This document shows, one piece after another, positions 17,271-52,081 of a stretch of 60,606 bases of DNA. The DNA is from Carcharhinus longimanus (Eukaryota). Positions within the stretch are counted from its first letter, which is position 1. Each line of letters opens with the position of its first letter. The notes beneath the pieces are model-generated. The model was not told where the DNA came from and searched no databases. It saw only the letters and a program-made list of their open reading frames with translations. The translations under genes were made by a program, and so were the position numbers. The stretch is taken from NCBI GenBank assembly GCA_030264375.1, contig JASCQW010000122.1, forward strand, positions 46,436,774-46,497,379, written 5' to 3'.

Positions 17271-17504
17271 ACACAGTAAGAAGTCTGACAACGCCAGGTT
17301 TAAGCCCAACCGATTTATTTGATAGTAAACTCACAAGCTTTCGGAGTTTGCCCCTTCGTCAGGTGAGTGGAGAGTTCTGGCCTCAGACAGAGCATATAAC
17401 AGCACAGACAGTTTACAGGTTACTCGTTAGAATGCGAGTCTTGGTGTTGTCAGACTTCTTACTGTCTTTACCCCAGTCCAACGCCGGCATCTCCAACATC
17501 ACGT
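17271..17504. mobile_element. Penelope-derived inverted-repeat insertion (copy A)
   Basis: cagtaagaagtctgacaac...gttgtcagacttcttactg inverted arms. TSD caacctgaggaga at 17258-17270 and 17505-17517. Confidence 0.8.
17329..17368 (-). ncRNA. Minimal type I hammerhead ribozyme motif
   Basis: ACUCAC-CUGACGA-A-GGGG-CAAA-CUCC-GAAAGCUU-GUGAGU: 6-bp stem I, intact core, stem II, and palindromic AAGCUU for a dimeric stem III. Confidence 0.75.
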
Positions 17505-39080: not shown

Positions 39081-40597
39081 TCAATGACCACTGCATGACC
39101 CATGATAAGGTCCTCCACTGCAGGGTCACCCCACTGCCCGTATCCACATCTCCATTGATGGATTGTACAGCTCTGCTTGGTCCTTGGCATGGTTTAAAGA
39201 AATACTAGAAATACTAACCTTTGTCCTCCTTCCTGCAGACTTAGCAGTGGTCACCTCTACCTTGGCCAAGGTCGCCAAGCTGTTGGCCCCCTGATTGGGC
39301 TGGCAGCTCTGAGAAGCATACCACCATTCAATTAGTGGCAGCCTTTTAATTGGTAAAATCCCGCTGCCTTCCCACGCGTGCTTGTTCCTCTGTCTCAGTC
39401 CCAGTGGAGGAATTAATAATTTTTGCACTAATCTCAGCCCCACAACATTAGGATTAAATGAGACATCAGCGCAGTTTTGCTTAATTACAAACATGACTAA
39501 CAATGAACATTAGTACCTCATGGGTGGCCAATGGGTTAGTTACAATGTGATCATGAATTAAGGTCTCACTGGTGTCTCATCCTCATGTATCCTGGACACC
39601 CTGCATTGGATTTAATACAGTCTCATTCAGCTAATCCAGAGGCATTGTGCTTTAGAAAAATGCTTATAAATCTGAAGCACCAGGGAGAAGAAGATATCTC
39701 TGGCCTTGTATTTAATTTTGAGCTGCAAGTTTATTTACACCAAAATTGTTCCAACTCTATTCAACGTTTTATTGCATCAATACTCAGAAAATATTTTAAT
39801 TATAAAATGAATAGATCTTCCTTCCTGACTCTGTTCAATGAATCAGACAAGACTGTTTCCTTCACCCTGTTTGGCTTAGGATACTTATTCAAATCCTTGC
39901 AATTGTTCAACATAGTGTATGTTCCATGGCTTACAATACAGAAGGCAAGAGGTTAAGTCACCCAAAACTTGCTGGGTCCAATTTTAGCTGACATAAATCC
40001 ATGAAATTTTAATCTCTATCCAAAACTTAAATATTTGAACATGCACGCTGCTTGCTAGTAAATCGAAAGCACCGTACCAGAACATTAACAGTGAGTGAAG
40101 AAGCCTGCTGAAGCAATGCAGAATTTTAAGAGAAACTCAGATCTGTTTCAAAGAAAAGAAGGAATAGCACATTTATGATATAAAGGCAGCTTCGAGATCA
40201 ATAAAGAATTTTTAACCTACTGAACATACAAAATATAAGATGGTGACAGTTTTGGGAAAAACCCAAGACCTTGGAGAAGGTGGAGCAGAAATTCAAAAGC
40301 TGAAAAGTTAAAGCATCTGGCTGAAAGCATCTAAATTGAAGAGACTCAGGGTGATCATCGAAGGAAGCTCCATAATCAAATTGGAAGCAGAGGGCAGAGG
40401 AAGAAAACTCTATTGTGCAGTTGAGGAGTCCAGAGATTATGTGGAAGTCCAGTTTGAATGCCCATAAAATGCAGTCAAAGGACCCAACTGGGGTGAACTA
40501 AAAAACAAATTCTTGGCTAAAACTAGTTTGGAAAAGTTTTCAGTCTTTTAAAAGTCATTTCCAAAGGCACCGGGACCAGCCTGTGTTCAGAGTTGGC

Positions 40598-40947
40598 CAT
40601 GACGTGGAGGTGCCGGCATTGGACTGCGGTAATCACAGTAAGAAGTCTCACAACACCAGGTTAAAGTCCAACAGGTTTATTTGCAGCAAAAGCCACTAGC
40701 TTTCGGAGTACCTGCTGCTCCTTCGTCAGGTGAGTGGGAGTGCAAGTGATGGTCACATAAGCAAACAAAAGAAACAAAAGTAGGAAATCAGAAGAAGTCC
40801 AGATTAAGATGTTTTTATACTCCTTTGCTGAGTTTGCAAATCAACTCTCACTCACCTAACGAAGGAGCAGCAAGTGCTCCGAAAGCTAGTGGCTTTTGCT
40901 ACCAAATAAACTTGTTGGACTTTAACCTGGTGCTGTGAGACTTCTTA
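40598..40947. mobile_element. Penelope-derived inverted-repeat insertion (copy B) with captured spacer
   Basis: Inverted arms of about 105 bp. TSD ctg(t/c)gttcagagttggc at 40581-40597 and 40948-40964. Confidence 0.85.
40694..40732 (-). ncRNA. Minimal type I hammerhead ribozyme motif
   Basis: CAC-CUGACGA-A-GGAG...CUCC-GAAAGCUA-GUG. The opposite arm has a core mutation (CUAACGA). Confidence 0.6.
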
Positions 40948-41357
40948 CTGCGTTCAGAGTTGGCTTCATAAAATGTGGCGGCTGAGCGTGGCACAAAGGA
41001 AAAGAAAATCAACAGTTTAAAAACCCCAGGCAAATCCTAGAAATGATGTTAAAACTCCCCCAAATCCACTGGTATTGCAGGGAACGCCTGGAGTAGTTGA
41101 TCAATTTCTGCACAAAATAAAAGACAAAGATGTTGGAACCCCCATCGTAGCACACGCTTGCCAAACCCAACAAGTGCGGGAAGACTCTGAGGAAACACTG
41201 ACTATGACACTATCTTTAAAACCAGCAATTAAATCTGTACTCACAAAAATCTTTTAAACAACTATGGGTAACAAACCAACTTTACTAATTTGGACTGATT
41301 CAAGAGCCAAACCAGATGAAAAATTGGGCGTGCTGGGGGAAAAAAATGTTTAATTTA

Positions 41358-41740
41358 GCGGAGATAATGTTGTAACAGTAATGTCACTGGATTAATAATC
41401 TAGAGACCTACAGGCTAATGTTTGGGGACATGGGTTCAAATCCCACCATGGTAGCTGGTGGAATTTAAACTCATTTAATAAATTCTGGAATATAAATTTA
41501 GTCTCGGTAATGGTGACCATGGAACCATCACCAATTGTTGTAAAAAGCCACCTCGTTCACCAATGTCCTTGAGGAAAGAAAGTCTGCCATCCTTATCGAG
41601 TCTGGTCTATGGGTGATTCCATACACACAGCACTGTGGCTGATTCTTAACTGCCCTCTGCAATGGCCTAGCAAGCTACTCAGTTCAATTCGAAATGGGCA
41701 GCAAATGATGGCCTTGCCAGTGATGGTCACATCCCATGAA
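41358..41740 (+). mobile_element. SacSINE1-like tRNA-derived SINE
   Basis: gtaatgtcactggattaataatctagagacc...gggttcaaatcccaccatgg head, conserved core and LINE-derived tail. Confidence 0.75.
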
Positions 41741-42149
41741 ACAACAGGCAAACAAAAGAAACCATATCTAAGTAGAAAATCAGAAGAAGTCCAGATTAAG
41801 ATGTTTTTATACTCCTTTGCTGAGTTTGCAAATGAGGTAATCCTAATGTAATAGACTGATGAATCCTCAACCAACTTTGATTAAATATTAAAAGCCTTCA
41901 GCAAATATGCATAAAATGCATAGAAGCATAAAAGAGAGACAGAAACTTCACACTAAAGCTACGAAAGTAAAAAATAAATACCCAAGTGAACTATATAACG
42001 GTGGCAGACAGACAGAGGACCATCCAGAGGTCTTAAAAATTTTTTTTTTTTGAAAATGATGACACATTTCCCAAACTGCATCAGCAAGTGGAAATGCAGA
42101 ACTCCCTGACTCTGATCAACTGGAATGTCGTAGAGAATTTAGGTTTTTT

Positions 42150-42432
42150 TTAGTTTAGTTTATTTATTTGTCACAAGTGAGCTTATATTAACACTGTAAT
42201 TAAGTTACTGTGAAAATCTCCTAATCGTTACATTCTGGCTCCTGTTCAGGTACACTGAGGGAGAATTTAGCACGGCCAATGTCCCTAGCCAGCCTGTCTT
42301 TTGAACTGTGGGAGGAAACCCACGCAGACAATAGGGAAAACATGCAGACTCTGCACAGACAGTGACCCAAGCCGGGAATCAAATCTCAGTCCCTGGTACT
42401 GTGAGGCAGCAGTGCTAATCACTGTGCCACAG
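42150..42432 (-). mobile_element. HE1-type SINE
   Basis: Reverse-complement HE1 head at 42370-42432. Confidence 0.8.
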
Positions 42433-42721
42433 TCGTTCAAATGAATTAGGAAGCCATGATTTGTACCAGAGTTGGAACAAGTTAAAACTTCAGTGGAGGC
42501 AGACCTGGCTAACAGTGAAATCAAAATGAAGGACCGGGACAAATCTGTGCTGCAGGCAGAGACAGAAAGGCAATCTAAGATGGGAAAATGTAAATCTGAA
42601 GCTGAGGAACAAGGAAGGCATTAGATGCCTCAAACTGACTGACTTGTCGAAAAATGAAATAGTGGAAATGAAAATCAAGAACACAGAATGGCAAGAAAAA
42701 GTGAAAGTTCTCATGAAGGAT

Positions 42722-42923
42722 AGTAAGAAGTCTCACAACACGAGGTTAAAGTCCAACAAATTTAATTGGTAGCACGAGCTTTCAGAGTGCTGCCCCTTCA
42801 TCATCACCAGATTAAGGAGCAGCGCTCCGAAAGCTCGTGCTATCAAATAAACCTATTGGACTTTAACCTGGTGTTGTGAGACTTCTTATGTGCCTATCCC
42901 AGTCCAACACCGGCGTCTCCACC
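42722..42923. mobile_element. Penelope-derived inverted-repeat insertion (copy C)
   Basis: Back-to-back inverted arms with almost no spacer; degenerate TSD ctcatgaagga / cttataaagga. Confidence 0.8.
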
Positions 42924-43621
42924 TTATAAAGGAGAAAGAATTGCTGATGAATCAGACCAGTTGCTGGCGTGCAACATTAACAAATTAAATTCTTGAATTT
43001 TAATCCAATTGGAAGTACTTGAAAGAGAAAATGCACAGTATGGATGAGCAAATCCAGACTTTGAATGCAGACAAAATAAATTCTAAGTAACAGATTGAGG
43101 ATGCAACAAGTAAATTGAAAGAGTCAAAGGAACAGTCAGTGACCACAGAAGAAGGATCCTGAAAAGAACTAAATGCCCAAGTGAAGCTGTTAAACTAGTT
43201 GAATGATACCTCTGAAACAAAGATAACTGAATTTACCAAGATAGATGTTAAGGTGAATGAAAAGATTGATAAGCTTGATAAAGATTTGAAAAAGAGGGTA
43301 AATAAATATTTAGGTAAAATTCTGAAAGCAGCAGAAAGGAAGATTAAATTTTGAAGCGTATGCTGCCACAAAGAGCAGAACACACCACAAGCAAAAAGAA
43401 CCACCAGTTTTGTACCAAGAATAAACAGAGTGAACATTCTCTTCAAAAAGAATCAGATAAGCTCCTTGCCCTGGAGCAGACCAAATGTGGAGTTGACAAG
43501 GAGAGGTTCAATGCCAAGAAAAGGAGATTTAAAAAAAAGACAATTAAGTGCCAGAAAGGCAATCTACAAAGTTAAAACATATCAACATATCAGAGCCTGC
43601 CACTCCTCCAAATGTAACCAT

Positions 43622-44510
43622 TAGACCATACGACATAGGAGCAAAATTAGGTCACTGGGCCCATTGAGTCCGCTCTGCCATTCAATCATGGCTGATTTTT
43701 TTTTCCTCATCCCCATTCTCTTGCTTTTTCCCCATAATCCCTGATCCCCTGATTAGTCAAGAACCTATCTATCTCTGTCTGAAAGACACTCAATGACCTG
43801 GCCTCCACAGCCTTCTCTGGCAAAGAGTTCCACAGATTCACTACTCTCTGGCTGAAGAAGTTCCTCCTCATCTCAGGATCAGCCCTTTAGCCTGAGTTTG
43901 TGCCCTCTGGTNNNNNNNNNNNNNNNNNNNNNNNNNNNNNNNNNNNNNNNNNNNNNNNNNNNNNNNNNNNNNNNNNNNNNNNNNNNNNNNNNNNNNNNNN
44001 NNNNNNNNNNNNNNNNNNNNNNNNNNNNNNNNNNNNNNNNNNNNNNNNNNNNNNNNNNNNNNNNNNNNNNNNNNNNNNNNNNNNNNNNNNNNNNNNNNNN
44101 NNNNNNNNNNNNNNNNNNNNNNNNNNNNNNNNNNNNNNNNNNNNNNNNNNNNNNNNNNNNNNNNNNNNNNNNNNNNNAGCCTTACACAGCTTCAGAAGTA
44201 CATCCCTGCTCTTGTATTCTAGCCCCCTCAACATGAATGCTAACATTGCATTTGTCTTCCTAACTGCCGACTGAATTTACATGTTAACCTTAGGAGAATC
44301 TTGAACAATGACTCCCAAGTCCCTTTTGTGTGTCTGATTTCCCAAGCATTTTCCCATTTAGAAAGTAGCCTATGCCCCCATTCCTCCTTCCAAAGTGCAT
44401 AACCTCACACTGTTTCACATTGTATTCCATCTGCCACTTTGTTGCCCACTCTCCTAACCTGTCCAAGTCCCTCTGTAGCCCTCCCCCTACCCCCCCAACT
44501 TCCTCAATAC
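43622..44510 (-). mobile_element. CR1/HER1-like LINE fragment
   Basis: LQRDLDRLGEWATKWQMEYNVKQCEVMHFG and MLAFMLRGLEYKSRDVLLKL. Confidence 0.9.
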
Positions 44511-44523
44511 TACGTGTCCCTCC

Positions 44524-44921
44524 AGAACAAGATCTGGGAGAATTGTCAAGCCTGAAGACCACCTGAATCTAAAAGTCAGAGGCTTGAGGAGGAGAGTAGG
44601 GGAGGCATAATGGTACACGTGATAGAAGTGTAAATATGTTGGACATAGAGTTGGGGTTGTGCAGCGTAAGGGTATCTAGCATAGCAAGGATTAGTGTGGG
44701 ACTAGGTAATTATTGCCCACAGAGCAATGTAAACAGACACAATACTTGAAACTTGAGAGAGTTGTGGACTGGACAGGGACCTGTGTAGAAGCCAGCATGG
44801 TATAAGCTCTGAGCTGGACCATATGCTGTACATATGTATATAGTTATGTGTTATCAATAAACATTGAACCTCTTCGATGAGACCGAATGAGCATACAACA
44901 TTTCTGTCCTCACACACTACA
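44524..44921 (+). mobile_element. Gypsy-type LTR retrotransposon 3' end (pol C-terminus, PPT, LTR)
   Basis: RTRSGRIVKPEDHLNL, then purine tract aggggagg (44598-44605), then a roughly 315-bp segment containing AATAAA and ending cactaca. Confidence 0.65.
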
Positions 44922-45420
44922 CTTTTTTGGGTGTCTAGCTGTTTTCTAACTGTTGTGCTCATCATTGTACATGCCCCTGCCTCCGTCCATCTTTGTTCAG
45001 AAGTCCAACTGTGGAACAAATGTAGTGTATACTTTGAAAGATCTGGGTAGCAATGGTAGAAACCAAAATGGGTTTCCACCAGTCACTTGCTCATCATTGT
45101 GTCCCATGCATCTAACCAGGAAGTTAGCAACCATTCATTGCCTCACTGTACCTAACAGCCTGCTGTGACATGAAATCATCACTTATGGATCTACTGGGTC
45201 TCAGTTGGGGTGACACTGAAATACTCTCTTGTGTCTCTGGGCTTACAAAGACACAAAAACATCAAATTGTGTTCTTGCTCCTGGCACCGCTTTGTTTCTG
45301 TTGCTGGAAATGAATATGCACACGTAACATGATGACAGCCCTGGAATCTGATGGGGATGCTGACTGCAGCAATAGTCATTGCATAGTCATCATTCAGTAA
45401 AGAATGGCCACTCGGTCTAA

Positions 45421-45658
45421 GTAAGAAGTCTCATAGGTTAAAGCCCAGCAGGTTTATTTGGAATCACGAGTTTTCAGAGCACTGTTCCTCCATCAGGTGA
45501 ATGGTCTCCATTTTGAGCCGGCAATTTGCAGTGTCAGCGGTAGCCATGATGTGGAGATGCCGGCATTGAACTGGGGTTACACCTGTTGGTCTTTAACCTG
45601 GTGTTGTGAGACTTCTTAATGTGCCCATCCCAGTCCAACGCCGGCATCTCCACATCAT
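45421..45658. mobile_element. Penelope-derived rearranged insertion (copy E)
   Basis: Forward arm, a second partial forward terminus (catgatgtggagatgccggc), then an inverted arm ending gccggcatctccacatca. Confidence 0.75.
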
Positions 45659-48419
45659 CACTCAGTTGTAGATGGAATGCTTCACCAATATAAATCACTG
45701 AAACCTGGGGAGAGGTAGAAGGATTGAGGATGATACTTGAATGAAAAAGCTTTGAATGAGGGGACAGAAGAGCAACAATAGATCCAAAGTATTAAGTATA
45801 ACATTTCCTCCTGCTAAAAATAGCATCAATTTCTGCACACACATTGTGTAAACTGCAAGCTGCATTGCATAACGTTGTTTTCCCCTAGCTGTGCATTTCA
45901 CATAATTAAAATCTTGCTTCTTAAATCAGCACGTGGCGCTTAGTGTGCTGGCTCAGCTGGCATTTTATATACAATGTCTGGGAGCAATGGCAGCAGGGAG
46001 CAATAAAGAAGACAAGTTACTATTCTCCTGATTACACTTTGGAGATTTATTCTTCTTGCTGCTTGAAACATTGTTCTTTTGTCACAAAATTCCTGTTCCA
46101 ATGAAATCTGAAGAGTGAAGTAGTTTTCACAGTATATCCTTCCCTGCCTTTCATGCTCCCTTCCAAAAACTGAAGGAATAAATTCAAGGCTGAGGTTGTA
46201 GGTAGGAGTTGCTGAAATTGTAAAGTATAATCTTGAGTACAGGTTTTAATTTCAGATTTTAAACGCAAATTAAACATTTTAGACGGTTAACCGTCAGGCC
46301 TTTGGTCATCTTAAATTATATTCTGAAAATATGAATTAAACTTTTGTTTTGTAGATAAATTATCAAATATCTTTCGAACAAAATATCTCAACAAGCTTCT
46401 AATTTGAGAATATTATGCTGGCAAAGTGAAGGATTCAGTGTCCACTGTGTAGAAGCCAACCAAGTTTGAAGGGTACAAGACCAAGATGATTAGATGTCAT
46501 CAAGCATCAGTAGAAACATGAGCAGATTGACAACCATGTAAAGGTCTGTCCTCTCAATTAGCAAGGAATATGAGAGAGAAACAAAAGATAATGGCACCCA
46601 TTATTGACTGAGGATGAAGACTTAGTAGGCTTGTTTAACATTTTCTTGTTAATTATTTCAGTGAAATCATTAACACAAATTAACATTAAAACAAATTAGC
46701 TAATAGCTTTCATAGAATCCCTACAGTGCAGAAGGAGGCTATTTGGTATATCTGACAACTTTTCCCCCCGGCTCTATCCCTGTAGCCCCATGTATATACC
46801 CTNNNNNNNNNNNNNNNNNNNNNNNNNNNNNNNNNNNNNNNNNNNNNNNNNNNNNNNNNNNNNNNNNNNNNNNNNNNNNNNNNNNNNNNNNNNNNNNNNN
46901 NNNNNNNNNNNNNNNNNNNNNNNNNNNNNNNNNNNNNNNNNNNNNNNNNNNNNNNNNNNNNNNNNNNNNNNNNNNNNNNNNNNNNNNNNNNNNNNNNNNN
47001 NNNNNNNNNNNNNNNNNNNNNNNNNNNNNNNNNNNNNNNNNNNNNNNNNNNNNNNNNNNNNNNNNNNNNNNNNNNNNNNNNNNNNNNNNNNNNNNNNNNN
47101 NNNNNNNNNNNNNNNNNNNNNNNNNNNNNNNNNNNNNNNNNNNNNNNNNNNNNNNNNNNNNNNNNNNNNNNNNNNNNNNNNNNNNNNNNNNNNNNNNNNN
47201 NNNNNNNNNNNNNNNNNNNNNNNNNNNNNNNNNNNNNNNNNNNNNNNNNNNNNNNNNNNNNNNNNNNNNNNNNNNNNNNNNNNNNNNNNNNNNNNNNNNN
47301 NNNNNNNNNNNNNNNNNNNNNNNNNNNNNNNNNNNNNNNNNNNNNNNNNNNNNNNNGTGACTAGGGGATTTTCACAGTAACTTCATTGCAGTGTTAATGT
47401 AATCCTACTTGTGACACTAATAAATAAACTTCAAATGTGCACTATATAGAAAACATATTAGGAGTTGTTCAACTGGTATAACTAAAATATTTTCTAGGCT
47501 AGGATTCACTGTACACACATTGGCTTTCTCAGAACAGTTCCATGTTCGATATTAACATTTATTTCCATCCTTATGAAACATCCGAGCCACCAGCAAAATT
47601 CTGGCTAGCAATGCTGAGAGGCAGAAGTTAGCTACTAACAAACGGATTTACCTTTTCAAGATAAGCCTTCCACACCAGTGAAACAGAGGCGAAACTATCA
47701 GAGAAGGCCAGGTGGTATATTCTAAATTCATCTGCAGTAATCCAAAACAATACAAAGCTCAAAAAAAATGCTGGAAACGCTCAGCATGTTTGGCTGCATC
47801 TGTGGTGTGAAATACCAATAACAAGATCCGGCCTGTATTTTATGCCCCCCAGCAGATTTGAAAGTGGGGGGAGGGGAATCTCATAACATCCAGTGAGTAC
47901 TCTTCCCGTTGGCGGCACAACTTCTCCTGACCTGTGTGAAATTTCAGGAGGGGCAGTGGCGTCATTGGGTGACCTACATACATTTGGGCTCATTAAGAGA
48001 TCAATTAATGGCCAATTAAAGGTCTTATTTCACCCCAGCTGGTGTTTTACTATGGTAGGTAATATCCATGCCATTTGGAAAGGCTAGCAGCTTTAGCTGC
48101 AAGGGATGGTACGGAATATAGGAGGGGGTGGAAACCTTCTTTATGGATCCCCGCTATCCATGTAAGCAATGCCCCTAAAGGTCATTCTTACATTTTTACT
48201 CTCCCCCCGAATCCCTGATTTTCCAAACTCCGGTCCCTACCCCCTCACCAGGGCCTACCTTAGTGTCCAACACCTGTAACAACTTCCATTGGGGATTGCC
48301 TGTAGTTCCAATAGTGGCCACTGCTCCACTTGACATTAGTAGGACAACAAAACCATTAACAAGCCAGAAGCTCGCTGAGCTGGGACGAGCAGAGCATCAG
48401 TGAGACCATAGCTGCAGTA

Positions 48420-51651: not shown

Positions 51652-51858
51652 CTGAAAATGGAAATGCTTAAAATGTTATTTACACAAGAACACAGCAGCA
51701 GATTTTAATAACTTGAATTATTTTTGATTTGTTTTAAGAATGAGAAACGTATCATTGGAGCACATTCAAATTCTCAAGCTTTTATCATCAAGTGCTCGAA
51801 GGTCAGTAATGCTGCACGATAAGAGAACAGGAGGAAGCCAGTGAGTGTAAAGTGAGGA

Positions 51859-52081
51859 TGTGGAGATGTCAATATTGGACTGGGGTAGGTACAGTAAGAA
51901 GTCCCACAACACCAGGTTAAAGTCCAATGGGTTTATTTGGCAGCATGAGTTTTTGGAGCGCTGCCCCGTCATCAGATGAGCGAAGAGTTGGGTTTACCTG
52001 ATGACGGGGCAGTGCTCCGAAAGCTCGTGCTACCAAATAAACCTGTTGGACTTTAAACTGGTGGTGTGAGATTTCTTATCA
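51859..52081. mobile_element. Penelope-derived inverted-repeat insertion (copy D)
   Basis: Inverted arms. TSD taaagtgagga at 51848-51858 and 52082-52092. Confidence 0.85.
51995..52029 (+). ncRNA. Minimal type I hammerhead ribozyme motif
   Basis: UAC-CUGAUGA-C-GGGGC-AGU-GCUCC-GAAAGCUC-GUG; stem I is only 3 bp. Confidence 0.55.

What the first reader, a model, noticed from the sequence alone, without database searches (positions are those of the whole stretch)
40581..41833. Penelope-derived hairpin insertion has captured a copy of neighbouring DNA
Seen: the spacer between the arms of copy B (40741-40841) is a same-orientation copy of 41715-41833. 57 nt are identical (40785-40841 = 41777-41833), and the upstream part has two small deletions. 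The copied piece spans the junction between a SINE tail and its flank, so the donor should be this locus. The whole unit is bounded by a 17-bp TSD with one mismatch. Inference: during integration the polymerase switched from element to nearby DNA or RNA and back, which would be a way to package host sequence between ribozyme-bearing ends.
Basis: partly seen in the sequence, partly recalled or inferred. Interest (0 to 1): 0.7.

Follow-up and report, generated by a model that had tools for sequence, protein, structure and literature searches.

The report
Penelope joints patched with neighbouring DNA
An old jumping-gene stub in what is likely a shark genome carries, between its two mirror-image halves, a 100-letter copy of DNA lying 750 letters away; 14 of 32 comparable patches in this genome have their source within 2,000 letters, which likely records how the two halves get sealed during insertion rather than a way of carrying host DNA around.

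Summary
Observation confirmed. 40581-40964 is a TSD-bounded, head-to-head pair of Penelope-type pLTR ends: one with the ~37-nt tail, one without. Its 100-nt centre copies 41715-41833, 750 bp away. The donor keeps a SINE tail that the copy has lost, so the direction is donor to spacer. Contigs of other runs bridge the left junction and both deletions, and one run has an empty site.

It recurs. Of 32 gap-free non-element spacers of at least 30 nt (this one plus 31 picked blind to their flanks), 14 have a local donor. All lie 29-1,829 bp away (median 800; P about 5e-6), on either side and in either orientation. Spacer-donor divergence (10.0%) equals arm-arm divergence (9.6%), so the patches likely date from integration. 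They are uncommon: 0 of 34 other unselected pairs.

Likely mechanism: both target strands prime cDNA, and one free cDNA end briefly copies nearby chromosome before the two ends are joined.

Packaging is not supported: the ribozymes face apart, one core is broken, and the spacer has no second copy.

The scan noted single such cases before, in this and other genomes. L1 has similar patches, but typically within 15 bp. New variant of a known kind.

The parts
40581..40597 (+). Target-site duplication, left copy (17 bp); its last 2 nt also fit the element's tail end
   Evidence: single copy in the empty-site contig of X12
40598..40741 (-). Left arm: 3' end of a Penelope-type pLTR with the ~37-nt tail (profile positions ~1071-1217)
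40690..40732 (-). Minimal type I hammerhead motif of the left arm, core intact (CAC-CUGAnGA-stem II-GAAA-GC-UH-GUG)
   Evidence: motif match; descriptor from PMC4209133 passages; no Rfam hammerhead hit at E<=1
40742..40841 (+). Spacer: same-orientation copy of 41715/6-41833 with two deletions; 40785-40841 identical to the donor
   Evidence: left junction bridged by contigs of X1 and X6
40842..40950 (+). Right arm: pLTR 3' end without the tail (ends at profile position ~1180); hammerhead core broken (G5 to A); its last bases overlap the TSD
40948..40964 (+). Target-site duplication, right copy (1 mismatch); its first 5 nt, in the left-copy version, equal the element's continuation
   Evidence: element continuation from the alignment
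41357..41760 (+). Old SINE whose 3' tail is the first part of the donor
   Evidence: 60-70 other copies align over its body; coverage ends at ~41760
41715..41833 (+). Donor: SINE tail plus unique flank, 750 bp right of the insertion
   Evidence: intact in contigs of X1, X4, X6, X19

Best explanation
The unit is a head-to-head pair of Penelope-type pLTR ends inside one target-site duplication, and its centre is a copy of chromosomal DNA 750 bp away that was likely made while two separately primed cDNA ends were being joined during integration. Steps: (1) Staggered cutting gives the 17-bp TSD (TSD shown; cutting inferred). (2) Both target 3' ends prime reverse transcription, one at the tail start site and one ~37 nt further in (geometry shown; priming inferred from in vitro work on a lizard element). 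(3) Both cDNAs stop short, here near the 5' edge of the hammerhead, leaving two non-complementary 3' overhangs (inferred). (4) One overhang pairs through a few bases with nearby chromosomal DNA, exposed by resection or invaded as duplex, and is extended about 100 nt discontinuously, which gives the two deletions (inferred). (5) It is released and joined to the other cDNA. The polymerase is not identified: host polymerase-theta-type end joining is my first choice, the element's own RT the second. The product is a dead scar, not a mobile package.
For: Recurrence: 14 of 32 gap-free non-element spacers >=30 nt have a donor within +-4.7 kb that beats all 31 null contexts; 13 of 31 without this locus. 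Distances 29-1,829 bp, median 800, P=5e-6 against a uniform spread over the available context; 11 same-orientation, 3 inverted. Age: non-CpG divergence spacer-donor 114/1138 versus arm-arm 115/1197, Wilcoxon p=0.76. This fits copying at integration and excludes gap-filling. Twin priming: 180 of 244 pairs have one tailed and one tail-less arm. In 155 gap-free such pairs the tail-less arm reaches >15 nt further in 40 times and the tailed arm 16 times, so neither is simply a fold-back copy of the other. PAc protein cuts and extends both strands and starts at two sites that delimit the tail (PMC11167929, main text read). TSD-like repeats in 110 of 188 pairs against 4.7% of shuffled flanks; 10 of the 14 patched loci. 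Several copies are discontinuous or carry short extra bases, and in L274 the patch itself folds back (read by eye). Resection of retrotransposon-made ends and 1-2 kb germline resection are reported in mammals (passages of 10.1101/2024.12.14.628481 and PMC7615360).
Against: 18 of 32 spacers have no clear donor within +-4.7 kb; 3 of 15 shorter than 60 nt have one, against 11 of 17 longer ones, and all 18 have assembly gaps within 2 kb. Per-locus divergences do not correlate (Spearman 0.13-0.18, p>0.5), and at this locus the spacer is closer to its donor (4/101) than the arms are to each other (7/106). Junction microhomology here is only 0-1 nt and was not tested formally. In L274 the template strand is the one that simple resection would remove, so duplex invasion or RNA is needed there. 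Element RNA from beyond the tail also turns up in joints, so RNA can serve as a junction template. The insertion is present in X10 and X21, but their listed pieces do not show the spacer.
Confidence: 0.65

Rival explanations
1. RNA-templated patch: the element's RT jumps from its own RNA onto a nascent transcript or R-loop RNA of the target region, copies ~100 nt, and the end is then joined.
For: Joints often hold element sequence from 3' of the tail, ending at a recurrent point, which must come from element RNA or another copy (window copy D; L100, L101, L119, L123, L155, L186). R2 shows template jumping and extra-template junctions (PMC11371274 passages). L274 needs a template that resection would not expose.
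Against: All 14 clear donors lie within 1.83 kb although 4.7 kb were searched on each side. No host gene or transcript strand was established for any locus. Donors are ordinary flank and SINE sequence on both sides.
Confidence: 0.15
2. Later centre-break repair: the insertion began as a tight palindrome, was cut at its hairpin tip generations later, and was repaired with a local templated patch that stabilised it (mechanism recalled from mouse palindrome work, from no call).
For: At this locus spacer-donor differs at 4/101, arm-arm at 7/106. The spacer is not seen in the listed pieces of the more distant carriers X10 and X21.
Against: Pooled over 14 loci the two divergences are equal. Arms in patched pairs are not visibly eroded: 12 of 14 still have one tailed end and most stop near the usual inner point. 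A hole in contigs proves nothing.
Confidence: 0.12
3. Packaging device: host DNA placed between ribozyme-bearing ends is cut out as RNA and moved again as a unit.
For: Adineta pLTRs have moved a host gene in trans, and unrelated sequences were seen between solo pLTRs (PMC3846280 passages). The left hammerhead core is intact.
Against: The ribozymes are on opposite strands; minimal hammerheads need a same-strand partner (PMC4209133 passages). The right core is broken; both cores match the motif in only 16 of 215 gap-free pairs. No second copy of this spacer. The L253 spacer's only other match is not inside Penelope arms. No spacer matched another patched locus among the loci held. Donors sit beside their insertions, which a moved package would not.
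Confidence: 0.04
4. Assembly artefact: a gap-closing step filled the hairpin centre with nearby reads.
For: The assembly has gaps inside 29 of 244 pairs. The right junction is not bridged by a listed contig.
Against: Contigs of two independent studies bridge the left junction and both deletions. Copies differ from their donors by 4-19%.
Confidence: 0.02

Closest known systems
Inverted-pLTR insertions of endonuclease-bearing Penelope-like elements (PMC8557442 and PMC3846280, passages read)
   Same: 5'-truncated inverted copy, 30-40-bp tail at one end only, TSD, hammerhead in the pLTR; host sequence between pLTRs was noted in Adineta
   Different: In the passages read, the captured sequence was not traced to the neighbourhood, and inverted joints were explained by self-priming on antisense RNA. 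Here the joint holds a traceable local copy, and arm geometry favours two primings.
L1 'templated insertions' and twin priming (10.1101/2024.08.27.596794, passages read)
   Same: Non-element template under 250 bp copied in during integration; two cDNAs joined at an inversion point; switching within the element RNA
   Different: L1 templates lie typically within 15 bp of the site (22 instances in that cohort). Here they lie 29-1,829 bp away, median 800, and sit in the joint between two cDNAs.
R2 snap-back and extra-template 5' junctions (PMC11371274, passages read)
   Same: The cDNA 3' end primes further synthesis on itself or, less often, on nearby target DNA
   Different: One cDNA at a fixed rDNA site in cultured cells; no inverted pLTR pair
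Polymerase-theta / synthesis-dependent MMEJ templated insertions (search listings only; details recalled)
   Same: Two 3' overhangs, short microhomology, iterative copying, snap-back
   Different: Recalled templates are mostly tens of bases from the break; the enzyme is not tested here
Non-LTR retrozymes (10.64898/2026.07.22.740005, first part read)
   Same: Short non-coding PLE-derived units with type I hammerheads
   Different: Retrozymes are tandem, same-strand repeats; this unit is head-to-head

Membership tests
EN+ Penelope-like element (Penelope/Poseidon type) | Arm sequence is the 3' end of an element whose ORF ends in a GIY-YIG endonuclease | tested here: inconclusive
   Longer copies run from the arm into an ORF. 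Pfam GIY-YIG E=0.0085, 16.8 bits, under the cut-off of 22.6, in 1 of 6 fragments scanned. No useful PDB hit.
EN+ Penelope-like element (Penelope/Poseidon type) | PLE-type RT upstream of the endonuclease | tested here: inconclusive
   RT motifs recognised by eye in broken frames (motif names recalled). No profile hit; no intact ORF found among 150 scored matches inspected in part.
EN+ Penelope-like element (Penelope/Poseidon type) | Inverted 5'-truncated pLTR with a 30-40-bp tail at one end only | tested here: met
   This locus, and 180 of 244 pairs; 3' ends cluster at profile positions ~1178 and ~1215
EN+ Penelope-like element (Penelope/Poseidon type) | Minimal type I hammerhead in the pLTR | tested here: met
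   Left arm matches the core motif, right arm has G5 to A; cleavage not tested
EN+ Penelope-like element (Penelope/Poseidon type) | Short TSD | tested here: met
   17 bp here; empty site in X12; median 12 bp in 110 of 188 pairs
L1-type templated insertion | Non-element genomic template under 250 bp built into the insertion | tested here: met
   35-136 nt in 14 loci
L1-type templated insertion | Template typically within 15 bp of the insertion site | tested here: not met
   0 of 14 within 15 bp; range 29-1,829
Polymerase-theta-mediated templated insertion | Junction microhomology and iterative copying | tested here: inconclusive
   0-5 nt and short extra bases by eye; copies too old for a formal test
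Polymerase-theta-mediated templated insertion | Dependence on POLQ | not testable with these tools
   needs a cell assay
Non-LTR retrozyme | Two or more hammerheads in tandem on one strand | tested here: not met
   Arms are head-to-head
pLTR-mediated mobilisation of host DNA in trans (Adineta type) | Host sequence between direct pLTRs, moved away from its source | tested here: not met
   Inverted arms; donor 750 bp away; no second copy

The most novel reading that the evidence does not exclude
Penelope integration leaves two cDNA overhangs that search about 2 kb of chromosome on either side, and the telomerase-related RT itself invades and copies that DNA to seal the joint. The hundreds to thousands of patches expected per genome would then form a fossil ruler of how far a germline break reaches, and direct evidence for twin priming as the origin of inverted pLTRs.
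Probability: 0.25. Interest if true: 0.72.

Novelty: new variant of a known kind. Interest (0 to 1): 0.52.

Why it matters
How Penelope-like elements make their inverted ends is described as unresolved in the papers read (PMC8557442, PMC3846280, PMC11167929). These patches are a readable trace of the joining step. They have a defined reach (under 2 kb, median 0.8 kb), the same age as the insertion, and both orientations. That makes twin priming against self-priming, and host against element polymerase, testable by computation in any cartilaginous-fish genome and in the existing PAc assay. The locus itself is an inert fossil, and local templating at retrotransposon junctions is known in kind.

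Tried and rejected
Rfam scan of 39500-46500: only sub-threshold hairpin matches, no hammerhead family. Folding single arms gave no hammerhead fold, so the motif was scored by core letters instead. Pfam on three fragments from L038: nothing. PDB: nothing useful. An apparent donor peak at ~1 kb in the first six cases did not hold: with 14 cases the spread is 29-1,829 bp. A library-insert-size artefact was rejected on 4-19% divergence. Side of the donor relative to the tailed arm: 9 short side, 4 tail side, 1 unclassed (counted), not convincing; orientation 11:3, p=0.057. Rows dropped before the count of 14: L263 (SINE piece 3,557 bp away, score 53 against null 51), L264 (1 of 31 nulls as good), L175, L146 and L179 (gap inside the unit; L175 matches DNA directly beside it), L133, L136 and L142 (under 30 unmasked nt), L138 (right arm broken, not paired). 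Four spacer-bearing rows with 3 kb of context or less (L233, L171, L123, L158) had no local match; the last two look like neighbouring insertions paired by the script. Genome searches for two unresolved spacers: L083/L132 is a piece of another dispersed repeat; L253 matches one degenerate repeat stretch on another contig at 83%. The other unresolved spacers were not searched genome-wide. Missing spacer contigs in X10, X19 and X21 are holes, not evidence. Open frames around the locus showed no host exon, so the RNA-template rival could not be tested by strand. Literature searches for a description of local patches in Penelope joints found none; the library lacks most subscription papers, and no supplements were read.

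Full report
WHAT IS THERE. The window lies on contig C122 of a 2.68-Gb gapped assembly. Its repeats suggest a shark or ray; that label is recalled and comes from no call. From left to right: a 17-bp TSD (40581-40597); a reverse-oriented element end (40598-40741); 100 nt of non-element DNA (40742-40841); a forward element end (40842-40950); the second TSD copy (40948-40964, one mismatch). The arms are 92.5% complementary over 107 nt. The left arm carries a further ~38-nt extension. The centre matches 41715-41833 in the same orientation: 57 nt identical, two deletions (13 and 5 nt net), 3-4 substitutions. Only the donor matches it over most of its length in the genome (8 matches in all, 6 of them partial A-rich). 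Other copies of the SINE end in the motif that the donor keeps and the spacer lacks, and SINE homology stops at ~41760. So the donor is the original and the copy crosses the SINE-flank boundary.

IS IT REAL. 24 runs were listed, all as assembled contigs; 8 were laid. X1 and X6, from different studies and about 2% divergent in the flanks, each have a gap-free contig from the left arm across both deletions into the identical stretch. X4 and X5 show the same with under 31 letters on the arm side. The donor is intact in X1, X4, X6 and X19. So the deletions were already in the copy before these lineages split, while the donor kept those bases. The right junction is not among the listed pieces. Flank-to-arm contigs show the insertion in X1, X4, X6, X21 and X10 (the last about 8% divergent). 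X12 (about 7%) has one contig that passes from the left flank to 40948 through 34 letters: an empty site.

THE ELEMENT. Longer copies near the window continue from the arm into broken frames with RT motifs (recognised by eye) and a C-terminal domain with a weak GIY-YIG match (E=0.0085, under cut-off). The arm holds a minimal type I hammerhead of the kind described for Penelope pLTRs (PMC4209133 passages). It is intact in the left arm and broken at G5 in the right. Among 244 distinct head-to-head pairs collected, 180 have one arm ending at the tail and one ending ~37 nt short of it. This is the published architecture (PMC8557442, PMC3846280 passages). It fits the in vitro finding that a lizard Penelope protein cuts and extends both strands and starts at two sites that delimit the tail (PMC11167929 main text). 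In 155 gap-free tail/short pairs the short arm reaches further inward in 40, the tailed arm in 16, and 99 are within 15 nt; the search patterns bias towards that symmetry. Since either arm can be the longer, two primings fit better than one cDNA folding back.

IS THE PATCH A ONE-OFF. Seven pattern searches listed 426 rows of head-to-head pairs with a set minimum gap: 46 of 46, 50 of 97, 50 of 165, 59 of 59, 21 of 21, 100 of 102, 100 of 122, with some overlap. I picked 75 by eye from the interior letters alone and fetched +-5 kb. 31 passed a scripted filter: no assembly gap, one unmasked run of at least 30 nt. With this locus, n=32. Each spacer was aligned to its own masked flanks and to the flanks of the other 31. 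14 had a clear local donor (scores 53-205, null maxima 28-46). One SINE piece 3.6 kb away was dropped as marginal, and 17 had none. Donors lie 29, 90, 138, 344, 345, 422, 750, 851, 881, 926, 1090, 1096, 1501 and 1829 bp away; P=5e-6 under a uniform spread over the available +-4.7 kb. 11 are same-orientation and 3 inverted, on both sides. Recovery is 11 of 17 for unmasked runs of 60 nt or more and 3 of 15 below; this locus counts in the lower class because the mask overran it. Patches are uncommon: none of 34 other gap-free pairs not selected for gap length has one, and 9 more such pairs have gaps. With 15 pairs in 460 kb, the genome would hold tens of thousands of pairs and, at a rate near 1%, hundreds of patches (extrapolation).

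WHEN. If patches were added long after insertion, they should be closer to their donors than the arms are to each other. Pooled non-CpG divergence is 114/1138 (10.0%) for spacer-donor and 115/1197 (9.6%) for arm-arm, Wilcoxon p=0.76. Against this: no per-locus correlation; this locus reads 4/101 versus 7/106; and arms might have started non-identical (own-arm identity median 88% versus 84% between loci).

HOW. Shown: geometry, TSD, local source, reach, age. Inferred: two cDNA 3' overhangs with nothing in common must be joined. One of them pairs with nearby DNA, is extended in short runs and is then sealed to the other. Here the second deletion reads naturally as a slip that repeats a 9-mer and re-primes on three bases. 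Other loci show extra bases, internal jumps and 0-5 nt of microhomology by eye. In L274 the patch folds back at a 6-bp palindrome and is copied into both halves. A reach of about 2 kb matches reported resection lengths in mammals (PMC7615360 passages), and resection of L1-made ends is inferred in 10.1101/2024.12.14.628481 (passages). L274 needs the opposite strand as template, so duplex invasion or RNA cannot be excluded. Element RNA from beyond the tail also appears in joints, which keeps the RNA-template rival alive.

PACKAGING. A transcript through the unit has only one hammerhead in sense. Minimal hammerheads work as same-strand dimers, and in the PAc system cleavage was not needed for insertion. 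The right core is broken. No second copy of this spacer exists, and none of the 32 spacers matched another patched locus held. I rate packaging at 0.04.

COMPARISON AND NOVELTY. It works like an L1 templated insertion at a twin-priming joint (10.1101/2024.08.27.596794 passages: templates under 250 bp, typically within 15 bp) and like R2 snap-back onto nearby target DNA (PMC11371274 passages). It differs in reach and in element class. Host sequence between pLTRs was noted in Adineta without a traced local source in the passages read. Four searches found no paper describing local patches in Penelope joints; the library is incomplete and supplements were not read. The scan's own notes report single cases in this and other genomes, some with donors 3.7 and 60 kb away (unchecked, not counted as support). 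Verdict: real, recurrent, a repair-type scar of Penelope integration; new variant of a known kind; interest 0.52.

Noticed in passing
window 17272-17500, 42720-42925, 45420-45658, 51855-52079: Four more head-to-head pairs of the same element, each with one tailed and one tail-less arm and short TSD-like repeats; none has a non-element spacer.
   Followed up: yes
window 45505-45579; L100, L101, L119, L123, L155, L186 centres: Joints filled with element sequence from just beyond the tail, often ending at the same point ~75-85 nt past it; suggests a template jump to a fixed RNA end or a third start site.
   Followed up: partly
L186:5056-5450: Two hammerhead-bearing units of ~270 nt in tandem on one strand, joined through the beyond-tail sequence: a retrozyme-like monomer that may be the RNA source of many short pairs.
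   Followed up: no
L274:4841-5194: The captured local sequence is itself an inverted pair (70 and 49 nt) turning at a 6-bp palindrome: a snap-back inside the patch.
   Followed up: partly
unselected pairs in the C122 block and beside other loci: 40 of 70 inner arm ends fall at profile positions 1066-1089, the 5' edge of the hammerhead; profile ends are imprecise.
   Followed up: partly
L069, L104, L079, L081 centres: Short joint inserts made of repeated copies of the bases next to the joint, as in iterative end-joining synthesis.
   Followed up: no
L014:3208-3295: A fragment resembling CR1-type RT sequence (label recalled) between two arms next to an assembly gap; may be a nested insertion or a mis-join.
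   Followed up: no
L253:4941-5057 and L293: Spacer matches one degenerate repeat stretch on another contig at 83% over its whole length: a possible distant donor, or a local one hidden in a gap.
   Followed up: partly
window 40000-43600: Strongly A-rich + strand (AT skew ~0.18) with lysine/glutamate-rich broken frames; the target may be a decayed LINE.
   Followed up: no
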